Shown in pieces: positions 18,021 through 53,341 of a stretch of 64,000 nucleotides of DNA. Origin of the DNA: a virus. Position 1 is the stretch's first letter. Every line of letters starts with the position of its first letter. The stretch spans positions 1 through 64,000 of the IMG/VR virus record IMGVR_UViG_3300003543_000059; one strand, written 5' to 3'. A model generated the notes under the pieces. That model was given only the letters and a program-made list of their open reading frames with translations, had not been told where the DNA came from and searched no databases. A program made the position numbers and the translations under genes.

Positions 18021-19090
18021 AAATGTTTGACAAATGCGCTATGTTTACTGATATACATTTTGGTAGACGTAATAACAGTGAAGCGCACAATAAGGACTGT
18101 TTAAATTTTGTAGAATGGTTTTGTGAACAGGTCAAAAATGACCCCACGATTGACCATATTATGTTCTTAGGTGATTGGTTTGAAACTCGTAGTGCTATCG
18201 ACCAAGAAACCATTAACTACTCTCAGAAAGCGTTTGACTTGCTTGAAGCACTTGAAATGCCCATCTACATGTTAGTAGGTAATCATGATTTGTATCGTAA
18301 ATTTTCTAGGGATATTAACTCGTCTAACATCTTTAAAGAATACAACAATCTTATCATCATTCAGGAGCCTGAAGTTCGACCGGAACTTCATGATTCATTC
18401 TTGACACCATTTTTGTTCAGCCATGAATTTGAAGAAGTTGTTAAATACAGTAAGTACAAGACGTGGTTTGGTCATTTGGAACTGAACGACTTTTACATTA
18501 CAGGGTATTACAATGTTAAAATGGAACACGGAGCAGACCCGAAACTCTTTAAAGATGTCGATAGGATATTTACTGGACACTATCATCGTAGGCAGTCTTA
18601 CAATAATATTCACTATATTGGTTCTCCATTTGGCTTCGATTTTAGTGATATAGACGATTTCGACAAAGGTATGGCTACTTTCAGCCACATTACCGAAGTA
18701 ACAGAATATTTCAATTATGAAGAAGGTGCCAAGTTCACCCAAATCAAACTAACCAAACTCTTAACAGATTTAAAAGCTGGAACTCTCAAATACCCTAACA
18801 ATATTTCGATACGTTGTGTGTTGGACATGGTGTTGGATTATGAGAAACATATGACAGTTAAAGACCTGATTATGAAGTCTTTTGATGTTAGAGAGTTAAA
18901 GTTTGATGACCCTATCGAACTAAGACAATCATTGATGAACGCTGACACCGAAGAAGTTGATATTCTTATGGAAAACGAAGACGGTGAATTGCCAGAACTT
19001 AAAGAATTGGTTATAATCATGTTAGCTAAAATTGACACCGATAAAATTGACAATGACCTGTTGGTGAAACTATATAAAGAAATAACATAA
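18017..19090 (+). CDS. gp47: Recombination nuclease, Mre11/SbcD-like
   Basis: DIHFG, GDWF, GNHD, GHYH metallophosphoesterase motifs. Confidence 0.95.
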   Translation: MKMFDKCAMFTDIHFGRRNNSEAHNKDCLNFVEWFCEQVKNDPTIDHIMFLGDWFETRSAIDQETINYSQKAFDLLEALEMPIYMLVGNHDLYRKFSRDINSSNIFKEYNNLIIIQEPEVRPELHDSFLTPFLFSHEFEEVVKYSKYKTWFGHLELNDFYITGYYNVKMEHGADPKLFKDVDRIFTGHYHRRQSYNNIHYIGSPFGFDFSDIDDFDKGMATFSHITEVTEYFNYEEGAKFTQIKLTKLLTDLKAGTLKYPNNISIRCVLDMVLDYEKHMTVKDLIMKSFDVRELKFDDPIELRQSLMNADTEEVDILMENEDGELPELKELVIIMLAKIDTDKIDNDLLVKLYKEIT

Positions 19091-19320
19091 TGGAAGAATT
19101 AGAAAAAATTGCTGACTATCTTTGTGGATATGTGGTAGAATCTAATTCTATTCGTGTTGATACTGGTGACCGTACCAGTAAAGAAAACTACGATGACTTA
19201 TTGGATTTAGAATCTGATATTGGTCATTTAATGGTAGAATGGGATGTTGTCGATAAATGGGCTGACCATGATACCCAAATTATAACGTTTCAAAAGGTTA
19301 AGAAAAATGGCAAGATTTAA
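19090..19320 (+). CDS. Hypothetical protein
   Basis: TAATG coupling to gp47. Confidence 0.6.
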   Translation: MEELEKIADYLCGYVVESNSIRVDTGDRTSKENYDDLLDLESDIGHLMVEWDVVDKWADHDTQIITFQKVKKNGKI

Positions 19321-24759: not shown

Positions 24760-24800
24760 TAAATAATATAAATACTTTAAAAATATATAAAGGAAACACA

Positions 24801-25583
24801 ATGTTACTATTAGAAATATTCAAAAAAATGAGTCTTACCGAAACATTTGTAATGCTGTTGATGGAAGGTAAGCTTGACAAAATGGCAGAAATGTATTCTG
24901 AAAAGTTGGAAGACCGTTTTGATAATGATAATCGAGTTCCCGCCAATATGAAAGCCAGATTAAGTCAAGGTGAGAACATTGCTGGTAATTTGATAAACCT
25001 ATTTGCCGAAATTGACCCAACTCGTAAAAAAAGCAACGTTCAATGGATGATTATACAATATATTAAAGGTGAACATTTAGAAGATATTGACCATGCTAAA
25101 AGGGCATTAACCACACTTGAAAAATATAAAGGGAAAATAGCAAAGAATCAAATCATGCAATATAAAAGTATTGCTGAATTGAATGCAGAAATTGAAAAGG
25201 TTATTAAAAGTGGTGATGTAAATGATTTAGACAACATTCCACCCGAAGAAGCCACGTATGTTGTGAATTCGCCTAACTTTAAAATCATTATACCTAAAAC
25301 ACATAAAGCTTCTTGTAAGTATGGTGCGTCAGGTTGGTGTACTACTAATGACGATGACCATTATTATAAAAATTATACTGGTCAAGGTGATTTATACATC
25401 ATAATGGTTGGTGGTGGTACAGACCCTAAGAAATATCAATTATCTTATGAAGGCGGGGAATTTAATAACTCTCAAAATAAACCTTTAACACAGCATGATA
25501 TAGATACTTTGTCTAAATTTCCACAGTATAAAGATTTCTTGAACATGTTGATTAAAAAGCATTATTCTAAGTATTTCAAATAA
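24801..25583 (+). CDS. PcfJ-related domain protein with putative capsid-targeting leader
   Basis: Start moved to 24801 (RBS AAGGA, TATAAATA 24767-24774); IIIPKTHKASCKYG..WCT motif. Confidence 0.6.
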   Translation: MLLLEIFKKMSLTETFVMLLMEGKLDKMAEMYSEKLEDRFDNDNRVPANMKARLSQGENIAGNLINLFAEIDPTRKKSNVQWMIIQYIKGEHLEDIDHAKRALTTLEKYKGKIAKNQIMQYKSIAELNAEIEKVIKSGDVNDLDNIPPEEATYVVNSPNFKIIIPKTHKASCKYGASGWCTTNDDDHYYKNYTGQGDLYIIMVGGGTDPKKYQLSYEGGEFNNSQNKPLTQHDIDTLSKFPQYKDFLNMLIKKHYSKYFK

Positions 25584-25591
25584 TTAGTACC

Positions 25592-26125
25592 ATGACTTTC
25601 AAACAATATTTGGTTGAAAGTGGTGTACTAGATGACATTTTAGGTAGTTTCGATTCTGATTCTCAAGAGTCGCAGCTACCTAAAGCTCCACCACCTACTA
25701 ACATTCCACCTCGAATTATACAAGCACCCAAACAAGATAAGTTTGTAGATTACTATTATGGTATGGAACTCAAGAAATTGCTACGTGGTGAACCTATTAC
25801 TATAAAAAATATTGCCGAACTTTATGCGTTTGATTATATGGCTCCTAGAGATAGCGTGACGTTAAATTTGTCAGTTGATGACATTGCAAAATATAAAGAA
25901 TATGATATAACCCGTGAACAAGAACCTGAACGTTGGGGTAAATTGTATTCATCAATCAAAGCTAATGGGGTGCAAACCGCTGGCACCATAATTTTAGACC
26001 GGATTCATAATGGCAGTAATGCTGGAAGTGTTGGTGTATTGTTAGGTGAAGGTAATCATCGGTTAGCTATTAGTATAGCGTTGGGCTTAAAAACAATGCC
26101 TATAAATTTCAGCGTCAAAAAGTAA
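25592..26125 (+). CDS. ParB/sulfiredoxin-like domain protein with MTFKQYLVE leader
   Basis: LYSSIKANG...LGEGNHRLA...LGLKTMP. Confidence 0.7.
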   Translation: MTFKQYLVESGVLDDILGSFDSDSQESQLPKAPPPTNIPPRIIQAPKQDKFVDYYYGMELKKLLRGEPITIKNIAELYAFDYMAPRDSVTLNLSVDDIAKYKEYDITREQEPERWGKLYSSIKANGVQTAGTIILDRIHNGSNAGSVGVLLGEGNHRLAISIALGLKTMPINFSVKK

Positions 26126-26131
26126 GACCCC

Positions 26132-26190
26132 ATCACAAAATTAAATTTGCAATTCTCTACCGTGTTGGTATAATAGACTCAACTTAAACA
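26132..26190 (+). promoter_or_regulatory. Early promoter element copy 2
   Basis: TTTGCA 26146-26151, TATAAT 26169-26174, AGACTCAACTTAAAC. Confidence 0.85.
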
Positions 26191-26202
26191 AAGGTGAGCA
26201 TC

Positions 26203-26520
26203 ATGGCTAAGAAAATATTCAAATTCATCAACACTGCGGGTCATGGTTATCTGGTAGTCCCAAACAAAATCATTAAAAAATATCTTGAACTTCTTATTGA
26301 CACAGATAAGTTATCTGATGTATCATACAGCTATTGGCAAAGAAAGAATTGCTATCTTGAAGAAGATGTTGAAGCTTATAAATTTCTTGAATGGTATGAA
26401 AAAGATGTGGGCGTAAAGCCTTCCATTTCTGAAACATATCAAGAAGATATTCGTAAAACACGTCCAATAAATTGGGTGGTAGGTATCGACCAAGCTGATG
26501 GTTCGCATTGGATTATATAA
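26203..26520 (+). CDS. Early hypothetical protein
   Basis: TAGHGYLVV..YLEED motif; RBS AGGTG. Confidence 0.75.
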   Translation: MAKKIFKFINTAGHGYLVVPNKIIKKYLELLIDTDKLSDVSYSYWQRKNCYLEEDVEAYKFLEWYEKDVGVKPSISETYQEDIRKTRPINWVVGIDQADGSHWII

Positions 26521-26714
26521 CCATGAATGAGTTATTACAATGGGAAATTGATTGGATTAATGCCCACCCAGAACGGTACGAAGGGACAATGCACAGGAAA
26601 GCTGTCATTGGAAATATAACAAAAATGTATCAACTCAGAGAAGTAAAAAAATTTATAAAACATTTTAATGATAATCTTGATATTATACAACAAAATAAAT
26701 ACCAATCAATATAA
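26508..26714 (+). CDS. Hypothetical protein
   Basis: Coupled ORF. Confidence 0.5.
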   Translation: MDYITMNELLQWEIDWINAHPERYEGTMHRKAVIGNITKMYQLREVKKFIKHFNDNLDIIQQNKYQSI

Positions 26715-26744
26715 TAGCTATAACTTAACCAAAAAGGTAATGAT

Positions 26745-27032
26745 ATGAGCAATTACACATTTAAAACTTCCGTGGTCACTATACGTGATGTCGAGCATGA
26801 GGTTGTAGTGAATTTTGACTATTCACCACCGGAAGAAGAAAAATTCAATCCACTGGAAGGTATTGGGAATCCATATTCCCCAGCAGAAGTTTCTTTACTC
26901 AGTGTTGACACTGTACTTTTCAATGCTACAACTTTAAATTTTGTTGATGTCCCTGACCAACTACCTAAATCTGAATGGGATTTGTTGGAAATGAGAGCGT
27001 TTGACCATGTGGAAGAAGTGGAAGGTGAATAA
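26745..27032 (+). CDS. Hypothetical protein
   Basis: RBS AAGGT. Confidence 0.7.
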   Translation: MSNYTFKTSVVTIRDVEHEVVVNFDYSPPEEEKFNPLEGIGNPYSPAEVSLLSVDTVLFNATTLNFVDVPDQLPKSEWDLLEMRAFDHVEEVEGE

Positions 27033-27439
27033 TGAACTTAATATTATCAGAACATGCAGCACACCGTTGGGAAGCAAGATTTCCTAATATAAATTTTTAC
27101 GCTGTGGTACCAACAGCAATAAGGTTAACATCAAGATTCGCCAGAGTTTTCAGACAACGCCACGAAGATGCTTCTGGTTGCCTAGAGCGAAGAGATTATT
27201 ACTACGTTTACGAGGCTGGGATTATTTTAGTCTGTCATGGTAAAATTGTGGTCACGGTTCTTAAAACATCTCGCGAAATGCATGAGTTTCTTAACAGATG
27301 CCAATTGAAAAAAGAAAATTCTGCATTAAGACCACAATATAAATCTAAAACGTGTGGTATCATTAAACGTGAAAAACAAGCGAGACACGATAGAAGACCT
27401 CCTTCTAATCGTGATATACTAAACGAATACGCATTTTAA
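27032..27439 (+). CDS. Hypothetical protein, DUF4258/RelE-like pattern
   Basis: LSEHAAHRW..R and IVVTV. Confidence 0.5.
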   Translation: MNLILSEHAAHRWEARFPNINFYAVVPTAIRLTSRFARVFRQRHEDASGCLERRDYYYVYEAGIILVCHGKIVVTVLKTSREMHEFLNRCQLKKENSALRPQYKSKTCGIIKREKQARHDRRPPSNRDILNEYAF

Positions 27440-27442
27440 TAT

Positions 27443-29041
27443 ATGACAATAATGGATAGTTGGGTATCAGAGCATACCCCAAGAATTTCCCAAGAAAAAG
27501 GGTTGGGGTGGTTAGAAGAACAAACCACCAAATATAATATAGTAGAAATGCCAGTCGGTGCTGGAAAGTCAACCTATGGATTAACATATTCAAATTGGCT
27601 TTCTGGTGATACTGGTGGTGATTCTTTTATACTAACACCTCAAAAAATCTTACAAGCTCAATATGAAACAGAAAAACTTTTAAAACCTAATGGGTTAGCT
27701 TCGCTGTACGGTAAAGCTAACTATTCATGTATGGATTTAGAAACATCTTGTGACCTTGGGTTGAAGTTTAAAGGTAAAGATTCATGTAAATATTGCATCT
27801 ATAAAGCAGCCTTAGACCGTGCTGTACGAAGTAATAACTTGGTTCTGAACTACACGTTAGCCTTATTGATGTTTGGTTACACTGGAGTGTTTGAGCCTCG
27901 TAAACTGATGATATGTGACGAAGCGCATAATCTTGAAAGCCAATTAGTAGATTTCAATTTAGTTTCGATTAACAGTAAACGGTTAGATATGCTAGGTATG
28001 GGTAAAAAGTTACCTGTGTTTGGTATAATTGATAGTGCATTTAACTGGCTCGATGATACCTATGAGCCTATATTGAAAGAAAAAGTTCTGCGTTTAGAAG
28101 ATGAAGCAGAAGATATTGTTGAATACACAATGCCTAAGATGATGAAGCCGGAAGAACGATATGTTCTAAAGATGGCTGAAAAACTTCGTAATCATTTAGA
28201 TGTGGTTAACACATTTTTAAACAAAGGGTTAGATGTTATTGGTAAAGATTTTGTATTGATGTCTGATGATGATACATTGCAGTTTAAATCTATCTACGGT
28301 AAAACAAATTTCCGTGAAATGTTAGACCCAATGGCAGACAAATTTTTGTTTATGTCTGGTACCATCATTGATAAAAATGAATACAGCAAAAGCCTTGGGC
28401 TAGACCCTGATGAAGTTTCGTTCTTATCGCTTGATTCAGAATTTTCATCTTCGAATAGACCTGTAGTTTATATGGGTGGTACAAAAGTTAACGCTAAATG
28501 GATGCAACCCGAAAATGATGCAGGTAGAGATAAGTATCTTGATAACATTAAAGAGATACTATCACTACACAAAAACGAAAAAGGCATCATACACACTGGA
28601 AACTTTAAAATAGCTGAATGGTTGGTGGAACGATTAGAAGATGGGAACCACACGATTTACCATCATAATCCTGGTTCCGACCATAAAAGAGAAGCTATAA
28701 TCAAAGCATACTTATTAGACCCTAAACCAAGCATCATGATTTCTCCATCAATGACAGAAGGTGTTGATTTGAAAAATGATTTGGGTAGGTTTGCTATCAT
28801 TGCTAAATTAGCATTCCCTTATCTTGGCGATAAATGGATTAAAAAACGTTTAGAATTATCACAAGAATGGTATGCTATTGAAGTTGTGAAAGCAATGATT
28901 CAAGGGTGTGGTCGTGTAGTGAGGTCTAAGACTGATTTAGGTACATGTTATATCGTTGATGAATCGTGGGCTTACTTCTATCGTAAGAACGCTCATTTGT
29001 TCCCTAAATGGTGGCGTGAAGCTTACGTTGTGATAGATTAA
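27443..29041 (+). CDS. dinG: DinG/XPD-family SF2 helicase with Fe-S cysteines
   Basis: MPVGAGKS, GKANYSC..C..C..C, DEAH, MSGT, EGVD, QGCGRVVR. Confidence 0.92.
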   Translation: MTIMDSWVSEHTPRISQEKGLGWLEEQTTKYNIVEMPVGAGKSTYGLTYSNWLSGDTGGDSFILTPQKILQAQYETEKLLKPNGLASLYGKANYSCMDLETSCDLGLKFKGKDSCKYCIYKAALDRAVRSNNLVLNYTLALLMFGYTGVFEPRKLMICDEAHNLESQLVDFNLVSINSKRLDMLGMGKKLPVFGIIDSAFNWLDDTYEPILKEKVLRLEDEAEDIVEYTMPKMMKPEERYVLKMAEKLRNHLDVVNTFLNKGLDVIGKDFVLMSDDDTLQFKSIYGKTNFREMLDPMADKFLFMSGTIIDKNEYSKSLGLDPDEVSFLSLDSEFSSSNRPVVYMGGTKVNAKWMQPENDAGRDKYLDNIKEILSLHKNEKGIIHTGNFKIAEWLVERLEDGNHTIYHHNPGSDHKREAIIKAYLLDPKPSIMISPSMTEGVDLKNDLGRFAIIAKLAFPYLGDKWIKKRLELSQEWYAIEVVKAMIQGCGRVVRSKTDLGTCYIVDESWAYFYRKNAHLFPKWWREAYVVID

Positions 29042-30500: not shown

Positions 30501-30560
30501 TTCACACAAATAAATTTGCAATCTGTTCACCGTTTGGTATAATAGTACCAACTTCAACGA
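30501..30560 (+). promoter_or_regulatory. Early promoter element copy 4
   Basis: TTCACACAAATAAATTTGCA, TATAAT 30538-30543. Confidence 0.85.
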
Positions 30561-30573
30561 AATGGTGAGCAAC

Positions 30574-30867
30574 ATGTTATCAAAAACCACAACAAATTAT
30601 GCCAATAAACGTGGCTTAGATGTTACAAACCATATCATCAATGAAGACGGTACATTCAAAAACGTGACAAACACTATTTGGGTATGGGAAGACGACAACG
30701 TTTCAGAGCCTTTATTCATATACACCTCTAATGACGATGGTTCATTCACATTGCACGGTAACATATATCTTGCTGATTCAATCAAAGAAGAACTCCCAGC
30801 TCACATTAAAGACGAAAAACATCTTAGAGAAGTATTGGCGTTTGTTGCGAAAGAATTAACTGCGTAA
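30574..30867 (+). CDS. Early hypothetical protein
   Basis: RBS GGTGAG after early promoter. Confidence 0.7.
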   Translation: MLSKTTTNYANKRGLDVTNHIINEDGTFKNVTNTIWVWEDDNVSEPLFIYTSNDDGSFTLHGNIYLADSIKEELPAHIKDEKHLREVLAFVAKELTA

Positions 30868-30913
30868 ATCCTACTGATTTGATAAATATTGATTAAACAT
30901 AAAGGGTATCATC

Positions 30914-31534
30914 ATGGATAAGCAAACAACATTTAAAGAGTTTTTAACTGAAAGTTCTTTAACAAGAGTATATCAACATTCTAAACAACATGCTATTGGC
31001 ACTATCACTGCGTTTAGATATGGTTATGAAGACGAAGATGGAGAAACCATACCATATACCAAACGGGAAAATAAACAGCGTAATAAATCTCTGTTAGCAA
31101 AACTATTAAGATATGGATACAGTATTACAGCAGTTAAAGGCACCTACATTGAAAATTACAATTCAGACGATGCTAGGGAAGTTGCTGAAGATGTATATTT
31201 AGTTGTAGATATAGGAGAACGTAACGATTTGAGAAAGAATTTGAAAAAACTTGGTGTTGAATTTGACCAAGATTCAATTTTGTTTGTTCCCAAAGGTGCT
31301 CAACGTGGTGAATTAATTGGTACCAACCATACGGGGTTCCCAGGTTTTGATAAGATAAATTATCTGAAAAATCCTATTTTTGGTAGAAATGGTGAATTCT
31401 ATACAAGAGTTAATGGTAGACCATTTATTCTAAAAGAATCAACATCATTTGTCGAGAAACCAGTGAAAGGTTGGGGTAGAAACTATTCGATTAAATTGAC
31501 CGCAGAAAAATCTTGGCAAGAAATCGAAGTTTGA
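30914..31534 (+). CDS. SAM lyase (T3 SAMase)-like protein with capsid-targeting-like leader
   Basis: ITAFR..NKQRNKSL..GTYIE..ED..EFDQDSIL parallels recalled T3 SAMase motifs SAFR/GCYRE/EE/EQDCVL; GATAAATA at 30881. Confidence 0.55.
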   Translation: MDKQTTFKEFLTESSLTRVYQHSKQHAIGTITAFRYGYEDEDGETIPYTKRENKQRNKSLLAKLLRYGYSITAVKGTYIENYNSDDAREVAEDVYLVVDIGERNDLRKNLKKLGVEFDQDSILFVPKGAQRGELIGTNHTGFPGFDKINYLKNPIFGRNGEFYTRVNGRPFILKESTSFVEKPVKGWGRNYSIKLTAEKSWQEIEV

Positions 31535-31541
31535 TAACTCT

Positions 31542-31600
31542 ATCACACAAATAAATTTGTAATTTGTTCCCCGTTTGGTATAATGGTACCAACTTCAACC
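31542..31600 (+). promoter_or_regulatory. Early promoter element copy 5
   Basis: TTTGTA 31556-31561, TATAAT 31579-31584. Confidence 0.8.
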
Positions 31601-31614
31601 AAACGGGGAACATC

Positions 31615-34234: not shown

Positions 34235-35202
34235 AATTGAAAATTTAAAATATATCAACATACCCGAAGATTATATTTTATATCGTGATGGTTCTAAATT
34301 GAATTATATTATCAAAGATGATGATGTAGATAAGATTATAAAGGATGAACGCAAAGCTTATCAACGTAAACTGAAAACTTCAGAAGAATTTCTGTTAACT
34401 AAGGCTTTTATTAAGAATACTAACGGAAATATAATTTCTGATAAACAAAGAGTTGAAATTGAACGAGTTATGTATGCTATGTGGAAATATAATGAAATGT
34501 TGAGAATAGAAACTCTAGTATTATTGCTTAATAATGGAATAGAAACAAAATTGTTAGAACGTATTAGATTATTGGGTAATTTGAAGGCTACTGATTCAAG
34601 ATTTAACAAAATATTGTTATATGGGATAAAAAAAGGATTAGAAGAATTTAGAATTAACAAATCTGAAAGAGTGAAAGGTTCTAACAATCCAGCTTATCAA
34701 CATGGCGGGAAATTAAGTCCATATAGCAAAAAATTTATCAAATATGATAGTTCTGATGAAAGTGAAAATATCAGAAAATCTATGTTCGATAAAAATATAA
34801 AGAACAGGAATGATAATCAAAATAACACATGTAGATTAGATTATTACACATCAAGAGGTCGTTCGGAAGAAGATGCTGTGTTGGCTTTGAAGAAACGTCA
34901 AACTACATTTTCAAAACAAAAATGTATTGACAAATATGGTGATGTAAAAGGTTTTAACGTTTGGAAGAAACGTCAAAATAAATGGCAAGGCACATTAACA
35001 TCTAAATCTCAAGAAGAAATTGATATTATTAACAAAAAGAAAAGAAGCATTGGTGGTTGCTCTAAAATAGCTACTGAGTTATTTGGGTCTTTAGGGTATG
35101 GTTTTGCGAGATATGATGGTAATGGTGGCGAATAAGAATAAAATAATAACAGAATGTAAGGATTTTATAAATGAATGGGATAATGAACTTTTCGCATCTT
35201 AA
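34182..35202 (+). mobile_element. Homing-endonuclease gene between the terL halves, apparently lacking its nuclease domain
   Basis: GSNNPAY, RQTTFS..CIDKYG..RQNKW modules; ORF stops at 35135, with a KNKIITECKDFINE tail in another frame; TATAAATA 34114-34121 upstream. Confidence 0.6.
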
Positions 35203-38200
35203 AGAGAAAATATTAAAATGGTGTTTAAGTGAAGAAGCTGTTATTTATGGTGAACTATATAAACAATACCAAACTAACAAAGTAGAACGATACCAACAAA
35301 ATAAACTTAAATTTGTTGAAGAATCTGAACCGAATGATTTGTTTATTAAAACACCTTCAGGAATATCACCAATAAAACGATTATTGAAAACTGTTGAATA
35401 TGATGTATATCGTATTACTTTGGAAAACGAATTATTCTTAGAATGCGCTGATGAACATTTATTGATAGGCGAATATGGTGATGCTATATTCGCTAAAGAT
35501 AGCAAAGGAACTACATTAAGAACGATTAAAGGACCATCTGCTGTTGTAAGCGTAGAACCATTGAATCGTTCTGAATCTATGTACGATATAGAGATTGATG
35601 GTGATGACCATACATATCATACTAATGGAATATTATCACATAATACAACTTGCGCTGCTGCTTTCTTCTTGTGGTACGCAACATTTGAAGAACATAAGAC
35701 TGTTCTTATCGTATCAAACAAAGAATCAAACGCTACAGAATTCATTCATCGTCTTCAGGTTATGTATGAATACTTACCTAAATGGTTGAAGGCTGGTGTT
35801 GATGGTGAATGGAATAAAAAATCTGTTGGTTTTGATAATGGTTGTCGTGTTATATCAAGAGCGACTTCAGACTCATCAGCAAGGGGTTTATCATTATCTA
35901 TCGTATTTGCAGACGAACTTGCATTCGTTAGGGATAACATTCAAGATGAATTTTGGGCTGCTCTATCACCAACATTATCATGCGTTACGGGTGATACACT
36001 GGTATTGACCAAAAATGGCTATGAAAAAATAGAAGATTTTCATAAAGGTAAAGGTGTTGGTGATTATTTTGAAATAGATGGTGTAGAAGTGTACGGTAAA
36101 GAAGGTATTGAACCATTATCGCATGGTTATGTATCACCAGAAAGCGATACTTTAATTATAGAAACACAACGCGGTTTTATGATAGAGGTTACTCATAATC
36201 ATCCATTATACGCGTTAACAGAAAACCCTGAAATGGTTAAAGCTAAAAATTTAACTACAGCGAACTATTTAAGAATTGATTATGGGATGAATCATTTTGG
36301 AAAAAAATCTTTAGATAGTGACATCGCTTATATGTTAGGTGGATATATAGCCGAGGGGTGGTCATCACATTTTAAAAATGCTAAAGGTGAACGGGTTAAT
36401 TCTGCCATATATATAGCAAACCTTGACAGTGATTTTCGTGAAGTGTTTTATCGAAATGGTTTTAGTGACGACCTTAATCAATCACACAAAATTAGAAAAT
36501 TTGGTGTAGATGTGTGCAGGTTTTGGGAAAACGAATATGGTATAAATTTTACTCAAAAATGTTATGACAAAGAAATACCACATTATATCATGCAATCTAA
36601 TAGTAAGACTATTGGCATGTTTCTTAGGGGGTTATATGATGGTGATGGTAGTATTACTGTAAATCGAGGGATTAATCTTACATCTACTAGTAGAAAATTA
36701 ATTCAGCAAGTTCAAATTTTATTGATGAATTTTGGCATTTTAACTACGCTGGTTAAAAATGATGCTGAAAAAATAATGATACGTGAGCGTGAAAGCTGTA
36801 GACTTTTGCCACAAGGAAAACCTATTCAATCATTAAGAGATAGTTGGGGGTTGAACATATCACGTTCAAACGCTGGTTTATTCCAGCGGTGTGTAGGTTT
36901 TAATATAAAGTATAAAGGGGATAAATTAGAAGAATGTATTAAAAAATATCCTCAAGATGATTACAAACAGAAAGTCATCCCTTTTGACATTATAAAAAAT
37001 GTTATATCTAACATAGTAGAATCAAGCGGAAAAACAAAAAAATGGTTTAGAGATAAAGGGTGTCGTTTAGATAAACTTTTTAATAAATCCACAGAAAGAA
37101 CGTGTACACTTAGATGGTTGGAAGTTTTTTACAAAGCTGTTAGACATATGGATTGTGTAGCTCAATATCACAATATATTCAATGAATTGTTAGGATATGA
37201 TTGTATATGGGATAAAATAAAAACTATAACTCCATCAACTAATAAGACGTATGATTTCACGGTACCAAAAACCCACACTTTTTTACAAAACGGTATTTTA
37301 GGTAGCAATACGGGTGGTTCGTGTATCGTGGCATCAACACCTAATGGTGACATGAACTTATTCGCTCAATTAGCCAGAGCATCAGAAGCAAAAACTAACG
37401 AATTCGTATTTAAAAAATATATCTGGGAAGATGTACCAGAACGTGATGAAGCTTGGAAGAAGTCTGAAATCATGCGGATTGGTGAAGAGAAATTTTTACA
37501 AGAACATTTGTGCCACTTCTTATCTAGTGAAGCCATGCTTATTAGTAGCATGGTTCTATCCACTATTAAACCCAAACAACACGTTCGGGAACTTAAAGAA
37601 TTCAAATTGTGGGATTCTTTTTCTCCTGAAAAATCTTACATTGTTGGTGTTGACCCTAGCACCGGAATTGATAATGACTTTTCGGTTATCGAGGTCTTTG
37701 AATTTCCTACTATGATTCAAGTAGGGGAATTTCGTTCAAACACTTGCAACACTACACAATTATACCAAGCTTTAAAAGGTATTCTTATCATGATGGAACG
37801 TGTTGGGTGCCAGATATTTTACAGTTCGGAAAATAATGGCATCGGTGAAGGGTTGTTGGTGTGTATTGAAAATGATGAAAATGCACCGGAACATGCTGAG
37901 TTCGTAACGCAAGCGAATTCTAAACGTGAAGGTTTTGCTACGACCAACAAGAGCAAAATTAAAGCTTGTATTAAGTTGCGTGAAATGTTTGAATCTGGTA
38001 AGATTGAAATTAAATCGGAGCATTTGTTATTTGAGCTTAAAAATTTCATTAGAACCAAAGCATCATATGAGGCTCAGCCTGGTGCTACAGATGATTGTAT
38101 ATCCGCAGTGCTGATAGTTATTAGAATTTTAGAAGAAATAATATTGTATGATGATAGAGCTTATGCTATGATGGAAGAAAGTTTAGGAGAAGATTATTTC

Positions 38201-38257
38201 TCTAATGATGTATATGACGAGAATGGTGTTGATGCGGCAATGCCAATAGTTTTTTAA
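35171..38257 (+). CDS. terL: Terminase large subunit C-fragment: split-intein C part (35171-35644), ATPase/nuclease, internal intein
   Basis: CADEH..MYDI..NGILSHN/TT; FADELAF, ASTPNG, QEH, GVDPS, DDCI. Confidence 0.92.
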   Translation: MNGIMNFSHLKEKILKWCLSEEAVIYGELYKQYQTNKVERYQQNKLKFVEESEPNDLFIKTPSGISPIKRLLKTVEYDVYRITLENELFLECADEHLLIGEYGDAIFAKDSKGTTLRTIKGPSAVVSVEPLNRSESMYDIEIDGDDHTYHTNGILSHNTTCAAAFFLWYATFEEHKTVLIVSNKESNATEFIHRLQVMYEYLPKWLKAGVDGEWNKKSVGFDNGCRVISRATSDSSARGLSLSIVFADELAFVRDNIQDEFWAALSPTLSCVTGDTLVLTKNGYEKIEDFHKGKGVGDYFEIDGVEVYGKEGIEPLSHGYVSPESDTLIIETQRGFMIEVTHNHPLYALTENPEMVKAKNLTTANYLRIDYGMNHFGKKSLDSDIAYMLGGYIAEGWSSHFKNAKGERVNSAIYIANLDSDFREVFYRNGFSDDLNQSHKIRKFGVDVCRFWENEYGINFTQKCYDKEIPHYIMQSNSKTIGMFLRGLYDGDGSITVNRGINLTSTSRKLIQQVQILLMNFGILTTLVKNDAEKIMIRERESCRLLPQGKPIQSLRDSWGLNISRSNAGLFQRCVGFNIKYKGDKLEECIKKYPQDDYKQKVIPFDIIKNVISNIVESSGKTKKWFRDKGCRLDKLFNKSTERTCTLRWLEVFYKAVRHMDCVAQYHNIFNELLGYDCIWDKIKTITPSTNKTYDFTVPKTHTFLQNGILGSNTGGSCIVASTPNGDMNLFAQLARASEAKTNEFVFKKYIWEDVPERDEAWKKSEIMRIGEEKFLQEHLCHFLSSEAMLISSMVLSTIKPKQHVRELKEFKLWDSFSPEKSYIVGVDPSTGIDNDFSVIEVFEFPTMIQVGEFRSNTCNTTQLYQALKGILIMMERVGCQIFYSSENNGIGEGLLVCIENDENAPEHAEFVTQANSKREGFATTNKSKIKACIKLREMFESGKIEIKSEHLLFELKNFIRTKASYEAQPGATDDCISAVLIVIRILEEIILYDDRAYAMMEESLGEDYFSNDVYDENGVDAAMPIVF
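35981..37309 (+). mobile_element. Contiguous intein with LAGLIDADG endonuclease (443 aa)
   Basis: CVTGDT..THNH..LGGYIAEG..LRGLYDGDG..TYDFTV..NGILGSN/T; excision restores SPTLS-TGGS. Confidence 0.92.
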
Positions 38258-39948
38258 TGATGTATGACAAAAAATTGAAGGAAATTGGGTACCATTTATC
38301 GAATGGTGGTAATATAGGAAATTACTGGCGTAATGTAAAATTGAAAGAATTATTACTAAAAGAAACAGATTTTTTAGTAGGTGTCAATACTAACATTGAG
38401 CGAATGTATTATATTATTAATGATTTAAGAGAACAACAACGATGCGTTTGCTCCAAATTAACTAGTGTTAAACGAGTAAAGGGGTATTATATAGTTCAAT
38501 CGTGTTCTAGGCATTGCGCTATGTCTGTGATTGGTAATGATGGTTTAACTGGTTATGAGAGAATAGGTAAAAAGACTAAAGATGCAATGGAAGTTGTAGG
38601 AGATGATGGACTAACAGGTTATGAACGTAATTCGGTTAAAATATCTAAAACCTTAAATAGTGTTCAGGAATCGGGAAAGACTAGAGGACAAGAATTGGGG
38701 GAATTGAGTGCTATAGCTCGAACTGTTGTTGATGTTAGCAGTGGGTTAACTATTAACCAAAAAAATGGTAAAAAAGTTTCGAAAACATTAATGGCTATTC
38801 AACCTTCTGGAAAAACTAGAGGGAAAGAATTGGGTGAGTTGGCTAGAAAAGTAAGAATAGTGGAAGATGATAATGGGTTGAACGGGTATCAACGGTCAGC
38901 TTTAATGATGTCAAAAACAGTTAAAAAACAAAAATACTATGAGCATAAAGATAAAATAGAATCATTGGGTTTCACCGTTCTCAGTAGTTTAAGTGAATAT
39001 TATAAAGATGTATATTTTAGATATAAATGTAATACGTGTAACCAACAAAACTACACACGATACAGAAATTTGAGATGTTTAAAATGTAATCCTTACAACA
39101 AATCTATAGCGGAACAAGAAATTATAGATTATTGTGATTCATACGTTTTAGTTAAATCTAACGCTAGAAATATTATATCACCATTAGAACTTGATGTGTA
39201 TGTGGAAAGTTTGAATCTTGCCATTGAATATAATGGATTATTCTGGCATAATCACAATAAACTTGAAAACAAAAATTACCATCTCAATAAAACTGAATTA
39301 TGTGAAGCTAAAGGAATTCATCTTCTTCATATTTTTGAAAATGAATGGCTCGACCCCACAAAACAAAATATTTGGAAGTCAATCATATCAAATAAATTAG
39401 GTCATTCCACACGATTATACGCTCGGAACTGCGGGATAAGAACAGTATCAAGCGTTGAAAAGTGTGAGTTCTTAAAAGCTAATCATCTTCAAGGTGATTG
39501 CCCTTCATCTGTTAATGTTGGGTTATATCATAATGATGAATTGGTTTCATTGATGACCTTTGGGAAATCAAGGTTTAGTAAAAAATATGATTGGGAGTTG
39601 TTACGTTTTTGTAATACATTAAATGTTAGTGTTGTTGGTGGAGCATCACGTTTGTTGAAACGTTTTCGAGCGTTAAACGATGGCTCAATCGTTTCTTACG
39701 CTGATAAACGTAGAAGCAATGGCAATCTATACAAACAACTAGGGTTCAGTCATAGCCATGATTCTAAGCCAAATTACTGGTATTTTAAAAGCGGTGATAT
39801 AATGTTAGAATCTAGAGTCAAATATCAAAAACATAAATTATCAAAAATTTTAAAATATTTTGATTCTGATTTGTCAGAAAGTGATAATATGAATAATAAC
39901 GGATACCATAAAATTTATGATTGCGGTAATCAAGTTTGGGTGTTATGA
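38257..39948 (+). mobile_element. Free-standing Hef-like endonuclease with Mom/GNAT-like domain, paralog of 8092..9936
   Basis: ELDVY..AIEYNGLFWH, YARNC, VSYADKRRSNGNLY, IYDCG; GLTGYER repeats. Confidence 0.75.
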
Positions 39949-47404: not shown

Positions 47405-47653
47405 ATGGAAACTAAGCAAACATTCAAAGAATTTTTAGAAGAACGAGCGTATGAAGGTAATAATTATCGTGAAACCTTTAAGGTTGATGGAAAAATGTTG
47501 AAGTTCTACCGTTTAGACCGTGATAAAGGTCAAGCTGCTTACATAAATGGTGATAAGATTTACATTATGGATGGTGATAAAGTAGTCTCTACCACCACCA
47601 AAGATAAATTTGACGATAAAATTGCGGACGAACCTAGACGCTTTACGCCTTAA
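47405..47653 (+). CDS. Small protein with METKQTFKEFLEE leader
   Basis: Start moved to 47405; leader resembles T4 internal proteins. Confidence 0.65.
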   Translation: METKQTFKEFLEERAYEGNNYRETFKVDGKMLKFYRLDRDKGQAAYINGDKIYIMDGDKVVSTTTKDKFDDKIADEPRRFTP

Positions 47654-49563
47654 TCAGAAAATAACTTATAACGCTCTTTGTCGGATTTAGCCATACCATG
47701 AATTCGTTTCATTGGGTGTTTAGCTTTAAACACTTCGTTCCCGTTGTTATCTTGGGTGTATTGAACCACCATTTTTTTATCTACATCAGGTCTGTTGGTG
47801 GTTAGTGCGTAATATACATCACCCGTTTTAGTGTCGGTTAGATATAGATTGCCTCGTTTATTCAAAGGTTTTTCACGGTAAGCTGGTGCTTCAGTTGAAT
47901 GTTTTTCTATAAGTCTTAGTAACTTCGTATCATATTCACGTTTTTTATAGTTAGGTTCCATGCCTAGTTTCAACAAATAGCAGAATCTTAATATGAAGGT
48001 TTTAATAAGCCCAAATTTTTTATGGTAATTTTCACCACCTAAATATCTGAATTCAATACGACCGTCTTCATTAAAAGCGTTCATACGATTGATACCATTA
48101 GACTTCTGATTAACTGGCATCAATGCTGTTATGATTTCCTTTTTCAATTTGGTGTAATCAGAAGCAGATAACCCATAATATTTAGCTTGTAATCCACTAG
48201 CAGCGTTTTGTATCCATTGCGTCATGGAATCAGCCCAACCACCATCTAAACGGTCTTCAAAGTGTTTTAGAATCAAACCTTCTTCCATAAACAACATCAT
48301 CTTGAACACGTCAAGCTTATCAAGATTGAAATTTTTATAACTTAGGTTGACATGGAACCCAGTTTCTCCTGCGCCTCTACTTATAGTCGCACCGTTATCA
48401 TCAATATAATCAAAAACCTGTTCCATAGATTCTAATCCGGCTTGTAATGAAAGTTTAGGTGATGTTATTTCTACCCCACCCTCGTCTAATGAAAGCGACC
48501 CATCTTCAACAATGTTCCATTCATTTTCATCACTACCATTAACGTCTAGGGTATACGGAAAATCGTTGTGATTGAATTTGTTGGCGATTAAGCCTTCAAA
48601 ATTATCATCACCATAAGTTCCATTATGTAGACTATCCAGCAATTCTTCGTTAGCTGAATCATATTCGTTTTCGTCGAATGCTTCATCGTACCCCATAAGC
48701 TTAATAAACGATTCTTCTTGGTCGGTTAAAGCTTCAAAGATGGCACCTTCTATGTGTTTCTTAATATCTGTTTTGGTTTCCTTTTTAAAGAAATATTCAA
48801 TAGTATCAATGATTTCTGAAGGAACTGTTGGTATTTTAACACCTTCTTTATCTAAAAATTTGTTGTGTGCCATATAGTCACTGAATCTTTGAACTTCAAG
48901 AGGTACATCATCTTTACTAATCTTGTAGTAGCTTTCACCTTTCACGTTAGTTTCTAGTGAGGTAACTTCTTGATATTTTTTAACTAATTTGAATTCTGGT
49001 TTATTTGCGTTTTGAAATCCATTAAGGTGCAACCCATAAGGTTCCAACTGTTTCATCGTCCATTCTCTAGCTTGATGATTGATAGCTGTTCTATCATCAC
49101 TTTCACTTTCTAATTTTGTGATTATATTTTGGCGTTTATTTGATATATCGTGGTACTTAGCAAGTGTTAATGGTTTATATGATGTGCCATTGGTTTTATT
49201 GAACTCTTCTACAGTTTTAATCCACTCTTTTTCCTTATTTTTAACAGCTTTCTTGCCAGCTTTAGCGCGTTGTTCATCAAACTGTTCTTGGTATGGCGAT
49301 AAATCTATCGTTGTTTGAAGGTTAACTATTTTTTTGACAAAGGCTTCGTATATTTCTGTAGCTTCTTCACTATAGTGTTTATAGTCTTTATGTTCATACA
49401 TATCAGAAAAATCATCATTACTATCACCAAACCCAGCTAAGTTGTTATCATAGTATTCATATTCCAGACCTAAGAAAAATTTAGTATCATTCATTATTTC
49501 TCTATAAGAAGAAGCGTGAACCTTTTCGGTGATAAGATATTGTTTGAAAGTAAGAGATGCCAT
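47650..49563 (-). CDS. Amidoligase (COOH-NH2 ligase, Amidoligase_2-like) A
   Basis: GLEYEY, EDGSL..GGVEITSP, TGFHVNLS, RIEFRYLGG; GATAAATA at 49598-49591. Confidence 0.85.
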   Translation of the reverse strand: MASLTFKQYLITEKVHASSYREIMNDTKFFLGLEYEYYDNNLAGFGDSNDDFSDMYEHKDYKHYSEEATEIYEAFVKKIVNLQTTIDLSPYQEQFDEQRAKAGKKAVKNKEKEWIKTVEEFNKTNGTSYKPLTLAKYHDISNKRQNIITKLESESDDRTAINHQAREWTMKQLEPYGLHLNGFQNANKPEFKLVKKYQEVTSLETNVKGESYYKISKDDVPLEVQRFSDYMAHNKFLDKEGVKIPTVPSEIIDTIEYFFKKETKTDIKKHIEGAIFEALTDQEESFIKLMGYDEAFDENEYDSANEELLDSLHNGTYGDDNFEGLIANKFNHNDFPYTLDVNGSDENEWNIVEDGSLSLDEGGVEITSPKLSLQAGLESMEQVFDYIDDNGATISRGAGETGFHVNLSYKNFNLDKLDVFKMMLFMEEGLILKHFEDRLDGGWADSMTQWIQNAASGLQAKYYGLSASDYTKLKKEIITALMPVNQKSNGINRMNAFNEDGRIEFRYLGGENYHKKFGLIKTFILRFCYLLKLGMEPNYKKREYDTKLLRLIEKHSTEAPAYREKPLNKRGNLYLTDTKTGDVYYALTTNRPDVDKKMVVQYTQDNNGNEVFKAKHPMKRIHGMAKSDKERYKLFSD

Positions 49564-52348: not shown

Positions 52349-52468
52349 AGTTTTGGTGAGCTGAGTTATAAATACTCCATAGCCATTTACAGGAACCATC
52401 ATGAAAATCGAAAACGACGAAGACCATTACGAATTCGTCGCTGTACCCAGCAATAATTAAGGATTACC

Positions 52469-53086
52469 ATGCAAGAACAACCATTAGTAGACGTTAACGA
52501 AGCAATTTTTATACCTAGCCTTGATGTGCTTAGTAGCTTAGGTGACAATCCTATTATGCTGGAAACCACGTTTTCAGACATGATGACTAGTTTGAGCAAT
52601 CCCAATAACTTCAATACAAAGATGCGTCAACATGCGACACAACCTATCGTTGTTTCACAGTTGAAGATAATTCCTTATGTTGGTGTGAAGACGATATTGT
52701 TTAAAGGTGTGATTAAAGGTTCTACCGGAAAAACATATGACACACATGTTTTATTCAAACGTGTTAATTTTGTGGGTGATGTAGATGATGTAGAAGACAT
52801 TGACAAGGATGTGGTTGAGTTTGTTGCTGCTGATGGTGAAACGTATTACATTGAGCGTATAAACCTTGCTAAACACGATTTAAGTGTGTCTTGTAACTGT
52901 TTAGACTTCAAGTGGACGTTTGCCAGACACAACGCTAAGACCAAAGATTTGTATGGTGGTGCTCCTGCTCCGTATAAGCCTAAAACCGATAGACCTTCAC
53001 GTAACCTTAATGACAAACCTGCAATGTGCAAGCATTTAATTAAGACTGTTGATGCTTTGGTGCAAGCTGATATGGCTAAAGAGTAA
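52469..53086 (+). CDS. SWIM zinc-finger protein
   Basis: VSCNCLDF...MCKHL; TATAAATA 52367-52374. Confidence 0.75.
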   Translation: MQEQPLVDVNEAIFIPSLDVLSSLGDNPIMLETTFSDMMTSLSNPNNFNTKMRQHATQPIVVSQLKIIPYVGVKTILFKGVIKGSTGKTYDTHVLFKRVNFVGDVDDVEDIDKDVVEFVAADGETYYIERINLAKHDLSVSCNCLDFKWTFARHNAKTKDLYGGAPAPYKPKTDRPSRNLNDKPAMCKHLIKTVDALVQADMAKE

Positions 53087-53133
53087 AAACTTTTTATAAA
53101 TAGGTGTAATAACCATTATAAGAGGATTCCAAA

Positions 53134-53304
53134 ATGGCTGAAGAAAATACACAAGATGCGGTAGTTGAAGATGATGTTACTACTCCGGTAGTTGAGCCTA
53201 AACCTACGCCTAAACCTGCTGTTACTAGAGCAAATAGTAATGTCCCAGCAAACAAACCTGTAAATGTTGGTAACGCTCCACAAAACAAACCTGTAAATAT
53301 ATAG
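53134..53304 (+). CDS. 56-aa late Pro/Asn-rich peptide (not in ORF track)
   Basis: TATAAATA 53095-53102, RBS GAGGA, downstream hairpin. Confidence 0.7.
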   Translation: MAEENTQDAVVEDDVTTPVVEPKPTPKPAVTRANSNVPANKPVNVGNAPQNKPVNI

Positions 53305-53311
53305 GAAACGA

Positions 53312-53341
53312 TAAGAACCGTTTCGGGAGTTACGGTTCTTA
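53312..53341. terminator. Hairpin between convergent genes
   Basis: TAAGAACCGT / ACGGTTCTTA inverted repeat. Confidence 0.6.

What the first reader, a model, noticed from the sequence alone, without database searches (positions are those of the whole stretch)
30881..31534. SAM-lyase-like protein with a capsid-targeting-like leader and late promoter
Seen: TAFR, N..R...L, GTYIE, AED and EFDQDSIL in the same order as T3 SAMase motifs (SAFR, N..R, GCYRE, EE, EWEQDCVL; recalled, not aligned). Established: T3 SAMase is an early protein that counters SAM-dependent Type I R-M and BREX. Inference: here it is late-made and packaged, so it could deplete SAM at the moment of DNA entry. The gene is a late island between two early promoter elements.
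Basis: partly seen in the sequence, partly recalled or inferred. Interest (0 to 1): 0.72.

Follow-up and report, generated by a model that had tools for sequence, protein, structure and literature searches.

The report
Head-targeted SAM lyase of T4-like phage
A large uncultured T4-like phage encodes a relative of the T3 enzyme that destroys the methyl donor SAM; it carries the short leader T4 uses to load proteins into its head, so it is probably injected with the DNA, as a 2023 virion proteome already suggested for a cyanophage homologue.

Summary
ORF 30914-31534 (206 aa) matches Pfam S-AdoMet_lyase above its cut-off. Its predicted fold is closest to T3 SAM lyase (Z 10.6; the next family scores about 5). 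The residues that bind SAM in T3 SAMase and Svi3-3 (A-x-R, G-x-Y-x-E, E, Q-D-S) are invariant in its family.

The first 13 residues (MDKQTTFKEFLTE|S) resemble the T4 IPII/IPIII capsid-targeting sequence MKTYQEFIAE|A. Four other ORFs of this contig, three of them unrelated families, start the same way (4 counted against 0.15 expected).

GATAAATA lies 26 nt before the ATG. It behaves as a late-promoter variant in this contig (Fisher p = 6e-4). Four relatives, three of them among the closest, have exact TATAAATA at the same distance.

The gene is not insulated: a strong early sigma70-type promoter 370 nt upstream reads into it with no terminator, so it is probably made both early and late.

Packaging is inferred, not shown. 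However, the homologue S-CREM2 gp6 was found in purified virions by mass spectrometry (PMC10665884). This scan has noted the same arrangement in at least 8 other findings from other genomes.

Verdict: a new member of a known, partly published kind. SAM cleavage and packaging of this protein are untested.

The parts
30516..30543 (+). Upstream early-type sigma70 promoter (TTGCAA, 16 nt, TGgTATAAT). It drives ORF 30562-30867 and, with no terminator in between, the SAM-lyase gene.
   Evidence: Member of repeat family D1/D2; 10/12 match with an extended -10.
30562..30867 (+). 101-aa ORF with no family match, the first gene of the early unit.
   Evidence: no Pfam hit.
30881..30888 (+). GATAAATA, a T4-type late-promoter variant 26 nt before the ATG.
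   Evidence: 6 of 13 GATAAATA sites lie within 60 nt upstream of a start, against 13 of 170 for variants at positions 2-8 (Fisher p = 6e-4). Relatives L049, L051, L054 and L105 have exact TATAAATA 23-28 nt upstream.
30901..30906 (+). Ribosome-binding site AAAGGG.
   Evidence: Read from the sequence.
30914..31534 (+). CDS of 206 aa, a long-form T3-type SAM lyase.
30914..30952 (+). Leader, residues 1-13: MDKQTTFKEFLTE. It is like the T4 CTS and ends in L-T-E, a gp21-type cut motif.
   Evidence: T4 IPII/IPIII start MKTYQEFIAE. The same leader is on ORFs 25592, 47405, 49563(-) and 50339. AF2 pLDDT is below 50 for residues 1-11.
30974..31444 (+). SAM-lyase fold core, residues 21-177.
   Evidence: VIA-align Z 10.6, 132 residues aligned to T3 SAMase 7ock_L residues 6-144.
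31007..31018 (+). TAFR (T32 A33 F34 R35), aligned to T3 S16-A17-F18-R19. A and R are invariant in both families.
31139..31153 (+). GTYIE (G76, Y78 and E80 invariant), aligned to T3 G55-C-Y57-R-E59 and Svi3-3 G56/Y58.
   Evidence: PMC7877911.
31187..31192 (+). E92-D93 (E92 invariant), aligned to T3 E67-E68 and equivalent to Svi3-3 E69.
   Evidence: PMC7877911.
31268..31276 (+). Q119-D120-S121 (Q and D invariant), aligned to T3 Q94-D95-C96 and Svi3-3 Q104-E105-S106.
   Evidence: PMC7877911; bioRxiv 10.1101/2023.02.27.530186.
31557..31584 (+). Downstream early-type sigma70 promoter for the next gene (ATG at 31615).
31565..31612 (+). 15-bp hairpin enclosing that promoter's -10. Its 3' arm covers the next gene's RBS. 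It has no U-tract, so it is not a canonical terminator.
   Evidence: Minimum free energy -29.6 kcal/mol, z -5.2.

Best explanation
The ORF encodes a T3-type S-adenosylmethionine lyase of a large, so far unnamed 'long' subfamily (about 200 aa; PHROG 30877). Members occur in T4-superfamily and other large myoviruses.

Shown here: the family match, the fold, the conserved SAM-binding residues, the leader and the promoter motifs.

Inferred: everything below on catalysis, loading, cleavage and ejection.

Proposed mechanism:
1. The protein binds SAM through G76/Y78, E92 and Q119-D120-S121 and splits it into methylthioadenosine and homoserine lactone.
2. It is made as a precursor. Its first 13 residues are a T4-type capsid-targeting propeptide.
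3. It is transcribed by read-through from the early promoter at 30516-30543 and again late from GATAAATA at 30881.
4. The late-made pool is loaded onto the prohead scaffolding core.
5. The gp21-type prohead protease cuts after L11-T12-E13. The 22-kDa, mildly basic enzyme (pI 9.1) stays in the head.
6. It is ejected with the DNA and lowers SAM in the new host before any phage gene is read. This weakens SAM-dependent defences (Type I/III R-M, BREX). The early-made pool continues the job.
For: Family and fold:
- Pfam PF23780 scores 38.1 bits against a cut-off of 28.
- All 120 listed homologues carry PF23780.
- AF2 model has pLDDT 78.7.
- Foldseek's top 7 hits are T3 SAMase or Svi3-3.
- VIA-align gives Z 10.6 with 132 residues aligned to T3 SAMase; CutA/PII proteins score about 5.

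Ligand-binding residues:
- hhalign of the family profile against a T3-family profile gives E 1.2e-4. It aligns A-x-R, N, G-x-Y-x-E, E-[DE] and Q-D-[SC], which are invariant or nearly invariant in both families.
- These are the residues shown to bind SAM or to be needed for activity (PMC7877911; 10.1101/2023.02.27.530186).

Leader:
- T4 IPII and IPIII start MKTYQEFIAE.
- Five ORFs of this contig start with TFK[EQD][FY]L..E. Four were counted against 0.15 expected from the internal rate.
- The nearest isolate, PANV1, has 9 such ORFs against 0.39 expected. Its SAM-lyase homologue starts MKTFSEFLGE and sits in a cluster of them.
- T4 internal proteins share only the CTS and are cut by gp21 after Glu (PMC3012670, PMC5694885).

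Protease: PANV1, Mel-JY01, CP20 and Slicko01 all encode Peptidase_S77.

T4 kinship of the contig: BLAST finds gp17, 18, 19, 25, 4, 43, 46, 47 and UvsX.

Late promoter.

Experiment on a homologue: S-CREM2 gp6 was detected in CsCl-purified virions (19 peptides; PMC10665884). It belongs to this subfamily (hhalign 98%, E 1.9e-13) and starts MKDFDSFLEE...LEESSLSRL.
Against: - No assay exists for any member of the long subfamily.
- Profile searches do not reach solved SAM lyases by sequence alone. The single-sequence hhalign is weak (9%).
- The gene lies in an early-type region between strong sigma70 promoters with no terminator upstream. Homologues in isolates sit near ligase, RecA, polymerase and RNR genes.
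- E13 belongs to the motif E-S-S-L-S-R, which is conserved across the family. That motif is internal in fused and tandem forms, so its conservation could be structural.
- T4 gp61.1 (MKTFKEFIKE), in an early region, has the same leader and is annotated only as hypothetical in the T4 record.
- No gp21, gp22 or gp23 gene is on the 78-kb fragment, which is about 25% complete.
- CP220's 11-band virion gel does not list the homologue (PMC2853527), but it names only major bands.
- Restriction enzymes may already hold SAM, so the benefit of an injected enzyme is uncertain (my inference).
Confidence: 0.5

Rival explanations
1. A cytoplasmic SAM lyase only. It is made early (and late) and acts in the infected cell like T3 gp0.3. 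The N-terminal segment is just the first helix of the long subfamily and does not direct packaging.
For: - An early sigma70 promoter lies upstream with no terminator.
- Homologues lie among DNA-metabolism genes.
- E-S-S-L-S-R is conserved and is internal in fusions.
- T4 gp61.1 has a similar start in an early region.
Against: - In CP20, Slicko01 and S-CREM2 the leader (M.F..[FY][LI]) is separated from ESSLSR by a spacer, so it is a distinct module.
- The same leader is on unrelated proteins.
- A late promoter is conserved at a fixed distance in relatives.
- S-CREM2 gp6 was found in virions (PMC10665884).
Confidence: 0.25
2. Same fold, different chemistry. The protein cleaves or only binds a SAM derivative or another adenosyl ligand, for example the type III CRISPR signal SAM-AMP. 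It may or may not be packaged.
For: [quoted passage not shown]
- The long subfamily has extra conserved N- and C-terminal elements of unknown role.
- The PII-like fold binds many nucleotides (PMC7877911).
Against: - The fold is much closer to T3 SAM lyase (Z 10.6) than to SAM-AMP lyase 9gad (Z 4.5).
- The residues that hold the methionine moiety of SAM are invariant.
Confidence: 0.15
3. A packaged internal head protein whose enzyme activity is lost or secondary, for example a DNA-associated filler.
For: - T4 IPII and IPIII have no known enzymatic role (my own knowledge).
- The mature protein is mildly basic, pI 9.1.
- S-CREM2 gp6 has a long lysine-rich tail.
Against: All ligand-binding residues are invariant over 32 diverse homologues, which argues for selection on the active site.
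Confidence: 0.05

Closest known systems
Bacteriophage T3 gp0.3 SAM lyase (SAMase; PDB 7OCK, 8BB1; Pfam PF23780)
   Same: - Same Pfam family.
- Best structural match: Z 10.6 over residues 21-177.
- Shared A-x-R, N, G-x-Y-x-E, E-[ED] and Q-D-[SC] motifs, and a shared C-terminal G-x-F...G-R-x-[FW] strand.
- Presumed reaction: SAM to MTA plus homoserine lactone, with anti-R-M and anti-BREX use.
   Different: - Only about 12-15% identity.
- 206 aa against 152 aa.
- Extra N-terminal leader plus the ESSLSR helix, and an extra C-terminal helix (178-206).
- T3's MetK-binding N-terminus (I2, T4, K5) has no counterpart, so MetK inhibition cannot be inferred.
- T3 gp0.3 is the first early protein and is not known to be in the virion. 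Here there is a late promoter and a CTS-like leader.
Synechococcus phage S-CREM2 gp6, 'SAM hydrolase (virion protein)' (OR473000; PMC10665884)
   Same: - Same long subfamily: hhalign 98%, E 1.9e-13 over 158 columns.
- Same order of elements: CTS-like start (MKDFDSFLEE), L-E-E|SSLSRL, G-x-Y-x-E, YDQDSVL, TR[IV].G[RK].F.
- From a T4-like phage.
   Different: - 414 aa with a long lysine-rich C-terminal half that is absent here.
- SAER in place of TAFR.
- Detected in virions by mass spectrometry, whereas nothing is measured for the window's protein.
- The paper does not discuss a targeting leader or a cut site.
T4 internal proteins IPI/IPII/IPIII and Alt (CTS-directed, gp21-processed, injected)
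   Same: - N-terminal leader of the same pattern ([YF]-x-[EQ]-[FY]-[IL]-x-E) ending in a Glu.
- The leader is shared among otherwise unrelated proteins of one phage.
- Anti-defence role of IPI* and enzymatic cargo (Alt).
   Different: - No sequence relation beyond the leader.
- The cargo here is a metabolite-destroying enzyme, not a nuclease inhibitor or an ADP-ribosyltransferase.
- Packaging and cleavage are not shown.
Svi3-3 SAM lyase (PDB 6ZM9/6ZNB) and SAM-AMP lyases (PDB 9GAD; AcrIIIB4)
   Same: PII-like ferredoxin core. The conserved G-x-Y, Glu and Q-[ED]-S residues hold the methionine part of SAM.
   Different: - Weaker structural match (Z 6.1-6.5 and 4.5).
- Svi3-3 is a trimer and T3 SAMase a dimer. 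The oligomer here is unknown.
- SAM-AMP lyases have an extra AMP pocket.

Membership tests
Phage SAM lyase (Pfam PF23780; T3 gp0.3 / Svi3-3) | Match to the family HMM above the curated cut-off | tested here: met
   38.1 bits against a cut-off of 28, E 1.8e-9, residues 48-139 on profile positions 10-98 of 133. T3 gp0.3 itself scores 143 bits.
Phage SAM lyase (Pfam PF23780; T3 gp0.3 / Svi3-3) | T3-type SAM lyase fold | tested here: met
   Foldseek's top 7 hits are all SAM lyases. VIA-align gives Z 10.6 and 10.5 to 7ock_L and 8bb1_E, with 132 and 124 residues aligned. The next unrelated family (CutA/PII) scores about 5. The model is a prediction with pLDDT 78.7.
Phage SAM lyase (Pfam PF23780; T3 gp0.3 / Svi3-3) | Conserved SAM-binding residues: Gly and Tyr (Svi3-3 G56/Y58), Glu (E69; T3 E68), Gln-Glu/Asp (Q104-E105; T3 Q94-D95) | tested here: met
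   G76, Y78, E92, Q119 and D120 are invariant in 32 homologues. They align to T3 G55, Y57, E67/E68, Q94 and D95. Whether E92 pairs with T3 E67 or E68 is uncertain by one position.
Phage SAM lyase (Pfam PF23780; T3 gp0.3 / Svi3-3) | Homo-oligomer (T3 dimer, Svi3-3 trimer with interface active sites) | not testable with these tools
   Needs size-exclusion chromatography or a solved structure; see Tried and rejected.
Phage SAM lyase (Pfam PF23780; T3 gp0.3 / Svi3-3) | Catalysis: SAM to 5'-methylthioadenosine plus homoserine lactone | not testable with these tools
   I found no assay for any member of the long subfamily in the papers searched.
T4-type CTS-bearing, gp21-processed internal head proteins | N-terminal leader like MKTYQEFIAE ending in [LI]-x-E | tested here: met
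   MDKQTTFKEFLTE|S compared with T4 IPII/IPIII MKTYQEFIAE|A. Position -3 from the Glu is L, I, V, M or F in about 30 of 32 homologues.
T4-type CTS-bearing, gp21-processed internal head proteins | The same leader on otherwise unrelated proteins of the same phage | tested here: met
   ORFs 25592, 47405, 49563(-) and 50339 share it. Four N-terminal matches were counted against 0.15 expected (ORF 47405 was missed by that count). PANV1 has 9 against 0.39 and T4 has 3 against 0.21.
T4-type CTS-bearing, gp21-processed internal head proteins | gp21-type prohead protease (Peptidase_S77) in the genome | tested here: inconclusive
   Not on the 78-kb fragment, which is about 25% complete. Present in all four isolated phages that carry a homologue.
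T4-type CTS-bearing, gp21-processed internal head proteins | Late transcription | tested here: met
   GATAAATA lies 26 nt upstream and is enriched before starts (p = 6e-4). Exact TATAAATA lies 23-28 nt upstream in 4 relatives. This is sequence evidence only, with no transcript data.
T4-type CTS-bearing, gp21-processed internal head proteins | Presence in the virion with the leader removed | not testable with these tools
   The only evidence is for the homologue S-CREM2 gp6, found in virions by mass spectrometry (PMC10665884). No peptide-level N-terminus is given.
SAM-AMP lyase (C. botulinum; AcrIIIB4) | Extended AMP-binding pocket and specificity for SAM-AMP | not tested
   Only a weak fold match, Z 4.5 to 9gad_E. 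The pocket was not examined.

The most novel reading that the evidence does not exclude
The T4 capsid-targeting leader is conserved across the whole T4 superfamily, from coliphages to marine, cyanobacterial and Campylobacter phages. It marks a sequence-predictable set of injected enzymes. In this phage the set would be the SAM lyase, two amidoligases and two small proteins. PANV1 would have at least 9, including a 2H-phosphoesterase-like protein. The SAM lyase would then be one arm of a pre-loaded, multi-enzyme anti-defence payload.
Probability: 0.35. Interest if true: 0.7.

Novelty: new member of a known kind. Interest (0 to 1): 0.45.

Why it matters
T3 SAMase is the textbook early anti-restriction enzyme. 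A version carried in the virion would act before any phage gene is transcribed, in the same way as T4 IPI*. It would extend the list of injected anti-defence proteins to one that destroys a metabolite.

The leader also gives a simple sequence rule for predicting virion cargo in uncultured T4-like phages. The long subfamily is large (over 1000 clusters at 50% identity), and the 29 phage records that match by tblastn either call it hypothetical or carry no annotation, so a single assay would name many genes.

The idea is not new. A virion-associated homologue was published in 2023, and this scan has flagged the same arrangement in other genomes.

Tried and rejected
- Sequence searches of the PDB, with the single protein and with the family profile, gave no SAM lyase even at E <= 10. 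Sequence alone is too weak. Only Pfam, profile-profile comparison and fold comparison see the relation.
- Complex prediction with 2 copies of residues 14-206 plus 2 SAM returned 'no answer' (score 0.01 against a mark of 0.42). This is not evidence either way, and the oligomeric state stays open.
- Peptidase_S77 and Gp23 Pfam models found nothing on the 78-kb fragment. This is uninformative at about 25% completeness.
- megablast of 4 kb against the phage collection found no match.
- CP220's virion gel lists 11 major bands and not CPT_0131. It is too shallow to count against packaging.
- The PANV1 paper has no virion proteomics.
- S-CREM2's supplement has no peptide-level data to show N-terminal trimming.
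- The Svi3-3 paper gave no kcat, so I made no estimate of depletion time.
- T4 ipII and ipIII have no exact TATAAATA within 70 nt, so the 'late promoter right upstream' criterion could not be calibrated on T4.
- PHROGs and Pfam gave no function for leader-bearing ORFs 25592 and 47405. A ParB-like reading of ORF 25592 from its GNHRL motif was dropped for lack of any match.
- I considered an intrinsic terminator after the gene. The hairpin at 31565-31612 has no U-tract, so I did not call it one.

Full report
**What is there**

The window is the first 64 kb of a 77.9-kb IMG/VR viral contig judged about 25% complete. The contig encodes tail sheath, tube and baseplate hub proteins, gp46/gp47-type nuclease subunits, a helicase and a large terminase with insertions. 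BLAST against T4 ORFs finds gp4, 17, 18, 19, 25, 43, 46, 47 and UvsX. The phage is therefore a distant member of the T4 superfamily.

ORF 30914-31534 (+) encodes 206 aa. It is the second gene behind a strong sigma70-type promoter: TTGCAA, 16 nt, TGgTATAAT at 30516-30543. A second copy of that promoter element follows the gene at 31557-31584. Seven copies of this element lie in the window, and they look like T4-type early promoters.

**Is it a SAM lyase?**

- Pfam S-AdoMet_lyase (PF23780) matches at 38.1 bits against a cut-off of 28. T3 gp0.3 itself scores 143 bits on the same model.
- PHROGs places the ORF in family 30877, 'unknown function'.
- The family is large. There are 271 clusters in the word-indexed search, and all 120 listed carry PF23780. 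The exhaustive search finds 1014 clusters at 50% identity.
- Among isolated phages it occurs in Paraglaciecola PANV1, Alishewanella Slicko01, Microcystis Mel-JY01, Campylobacter CP220-type phages and Lak megaphages. The matching records either call it hypothetical or carry no annotation.
- An AF2 model built on a 32-sequence alignment has pLDDT 78.7.
- Foldseek's seven best PDB hits are all T3 SAMase or Svi3-3.
- VIA-align gives Z 10.6 (132 residues, rmsd 3.7) to T3 SAMase over model residues 21-177. Svi3-3 scores 6.1-6.5 and CutA/PII proteins about 5.
- Profile-profile comparison with a 16-sequence T3-family alignment gives E 1.2e-4. It pairs:
  - T32-A-F-R35 with S16-A-F-R19;
  - N53 with N27;
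  - G76-T-Y-I-E80 with G55-C-Y-R-E59;
  - E92-D93 with E67-E68;
  - Q119-D-S121 with Q94-D-C96.
- These positions are invariant or nearly invariant in both families.
- They are the residues that hold SAM in Svi3-3 (G56, Y58, E69, Q104, E105; PMC7877911). In T3 their mutation (E68Q, Q94A) cuts or abolishes activity (10.1101/2023.02.27.530186).

Relative to T3, the protein has about 20 extra N-terminal residues and a C-terminal helix (178-206). Activity itself is untested.

**The leader**

T4 IPII and IPIII, read from the T4 record, begin MKTYQEFIAE|A. The ORF begins MDKQTTFKEFLTE|S. It has the same [YF]-x-[EQ]-[FY]-[IL]-x-E pattern and ends in the L/I-x-E type of site. T4 gp21 cuts C-terminal to a Glu (PMC5694885).

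Four more ORFs in the same contig start alike:

| ORF | Start | Note |
|---|---|---|
| 25592 | MTFKQYLVE | no family match |
| 47405 | METKQTFKEFLEE | no family match |
| 49563(-) | MASLTFKQYLITE | Amidoligase_2 paralogue |
| 50339 | MLGTFKDYLITE | Amidoligase_2 paralogue |

A crude gene call counts 4 N-terminal matches against 0.15 expected from the motif's internal frequency. The same test gives 3 against 0.21 in T4 and 9 against 0.39 in PANV1.

In PANV1 the SAM-lyase homologue starts MKTFSEFLGE and lies in a cluster of leader-bearing small ORFs. A further leader-bearing ORF sits directly upstream of the gp21 homologue.

In CP20, Slicko01 and S-CREM2 the leader is separated by a spacer from the family's conserved E-S-S-L-S-R helix. 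It is therefore a module of its own.

All four isolates that carry a homologue encode Peptidase_S77. According to PMC3012670, T-even internal proteins are diverse defence proteins that share only the CTS.

**Cautions on the leader**

- E13 is part of the ESSLSR motif, and that motif is internal in fused or tandem forms.
- T4 gp61.1, in an early region and annotated only as hypothetical, also starts MKTFKEFIKE.
- The head genes of this phage are not on the fragment.

**Timing**

Exact TATAAATA is over-represented in the window (20 found against 11 expected). It sits before the sheath and tube genes and other genes.

In the 78-kb contig, 12 of 26 TATAAATA and 6 of 13 GATAAATA sites lie within 60 nt upstream of a start. 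Only 13 of 170 sites of variants at positions 2-8 do so (Fisher p = 6e-4). The first base is therefore free in this phage. GATAAATA at 30881-30888, 26 nt before the ATG, falls at the modal distance.

Four relatives (L049, L051, L054, L105), three of them among the closest, carry exact TATAAATA 23-28 nt before their start. In three of these four loci it is the only copy on that strand in 7-12 kb; L049 has two.

No terminator separates the gene from the early promoter at 30516. Early plus late expression is thus the most likely pattern. The gene is not a strictly late island.

**Published and earlier evidence**

I found it: Synechococcus phage S-CREM2 gp6, 'SAM hydrolase', was detected in CsCl-purified virions with 19 peptides. 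The authors suggested that it enters with the DNA (PMC10665884).

I fetched gp6. It carries PF23780 and belongs to this long subfamily (hhalign 98%, E 1.9e-13). It starts MKDFDSFLEE...LEE|SSLSRL. This is the only experimental support for packaging, and it concerns a homologue. The paper mentions neither a leader nor a cut site.

The scan has already reported the same arrangement in at least 8 other findings from other genomes.

**Verdict**

The protein is a genuine T3-type SAM-lyase-fold family member with an intact ligand site. It probably cleaves SAM (my odds about 0.75). It is probably loaded into the head through a T4-type leader and trimmed after E13 (about 0.6). It is transcribed both early and late.

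It is a new member of a kind already glimpsed in the literature, so interest is moderate. The broader set of leader-tagged enzymes in this phage is the more novel lead.

Noticed in passing
window 31565-31612 and 30524-30571: Each early-type promoter is embedded in a hairpin. The 5' arm precedes the -10 and the 3' arm covers the next gene's RBS (GGGGAA or GGTGAG). The arms differ between the two copies in a compensating way (CCCCGTTTGG/CCAAACGGGG against CACCGTTT/AAATGGTG). Read-through transcripts would have the RBS locked, while transcripts starting at the promoter would not. Energies are -29.6 kcal/mol (z -5.2) and -19.8 kcal/mol (z -2.0).
   Followed up: partly
window 47650-49563 (-) and 50339-51973 (+): Two divergent paralogues of 637 and 544 aa carry a Pfam Amidoligase_2 domain and the same CTS-like leader (TFKQYLITE / TFKDYLITE). 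The first is preceded by GATAAATA 28 nt upstream.
   Followed up: partly
window 25592-26125 (+) and 47405-47653 (+): Two further ORFs of 177 and 82 aa carry the leader (MTFKQYLVE, METKQTFKEFLEE). Neither has a Pfam or PHROG match. Both are distal genes of units that begin with TATAAATA (24767 and 44530).
   Followed up: partly
PANV1 (MW805361) 24784-28014, 6388, 20162, 53022, 54516: Nine ORFs start MK[ST][FY].[EQ][FY][LIV].E. Five are clustered around the SAM-lyase homologue gp48, like a T-even IP locus. One sits directly upstream of the gp21 protease gene. One (53022) matches PHROG 755 'RNA ligase' and has TATAAATA right upstream.
   Followed up: partly
T4 (NC_000866) 18966-19130 (-), gene 61.1: This 54-aa hypothetical protein next to the primase gene starts MKTFKEFIKE, a near copy of the IPII/IPIII capsid-targeting sequence. 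The T4 record annotates it only as hypothetical.
   Followed up: no
P0121-P0123, P0113, P0125, P0126; Mel-JY01 52405-53691; S-CREM2 gp6: The long SAM-lyase subfamily also occurs in other forms: as tandem duplicates (about 400-550 aa), fused behind an unknown N-terminal domain of about 150-200 aa, and with long C-terminal tails that are lysine-rich in S-CREM2.
   Followed up: no
window 35171-38257, 38257-39948, 8092-9936: The large terminase ORF is 1028 aa and its terminase matches are interrupted by non-terminase segments. Two 560-610-aa homing/HNH endonuclease genes (PHROG 3339) lie in the window, one directly after the terminase gene.
   Followed up: no
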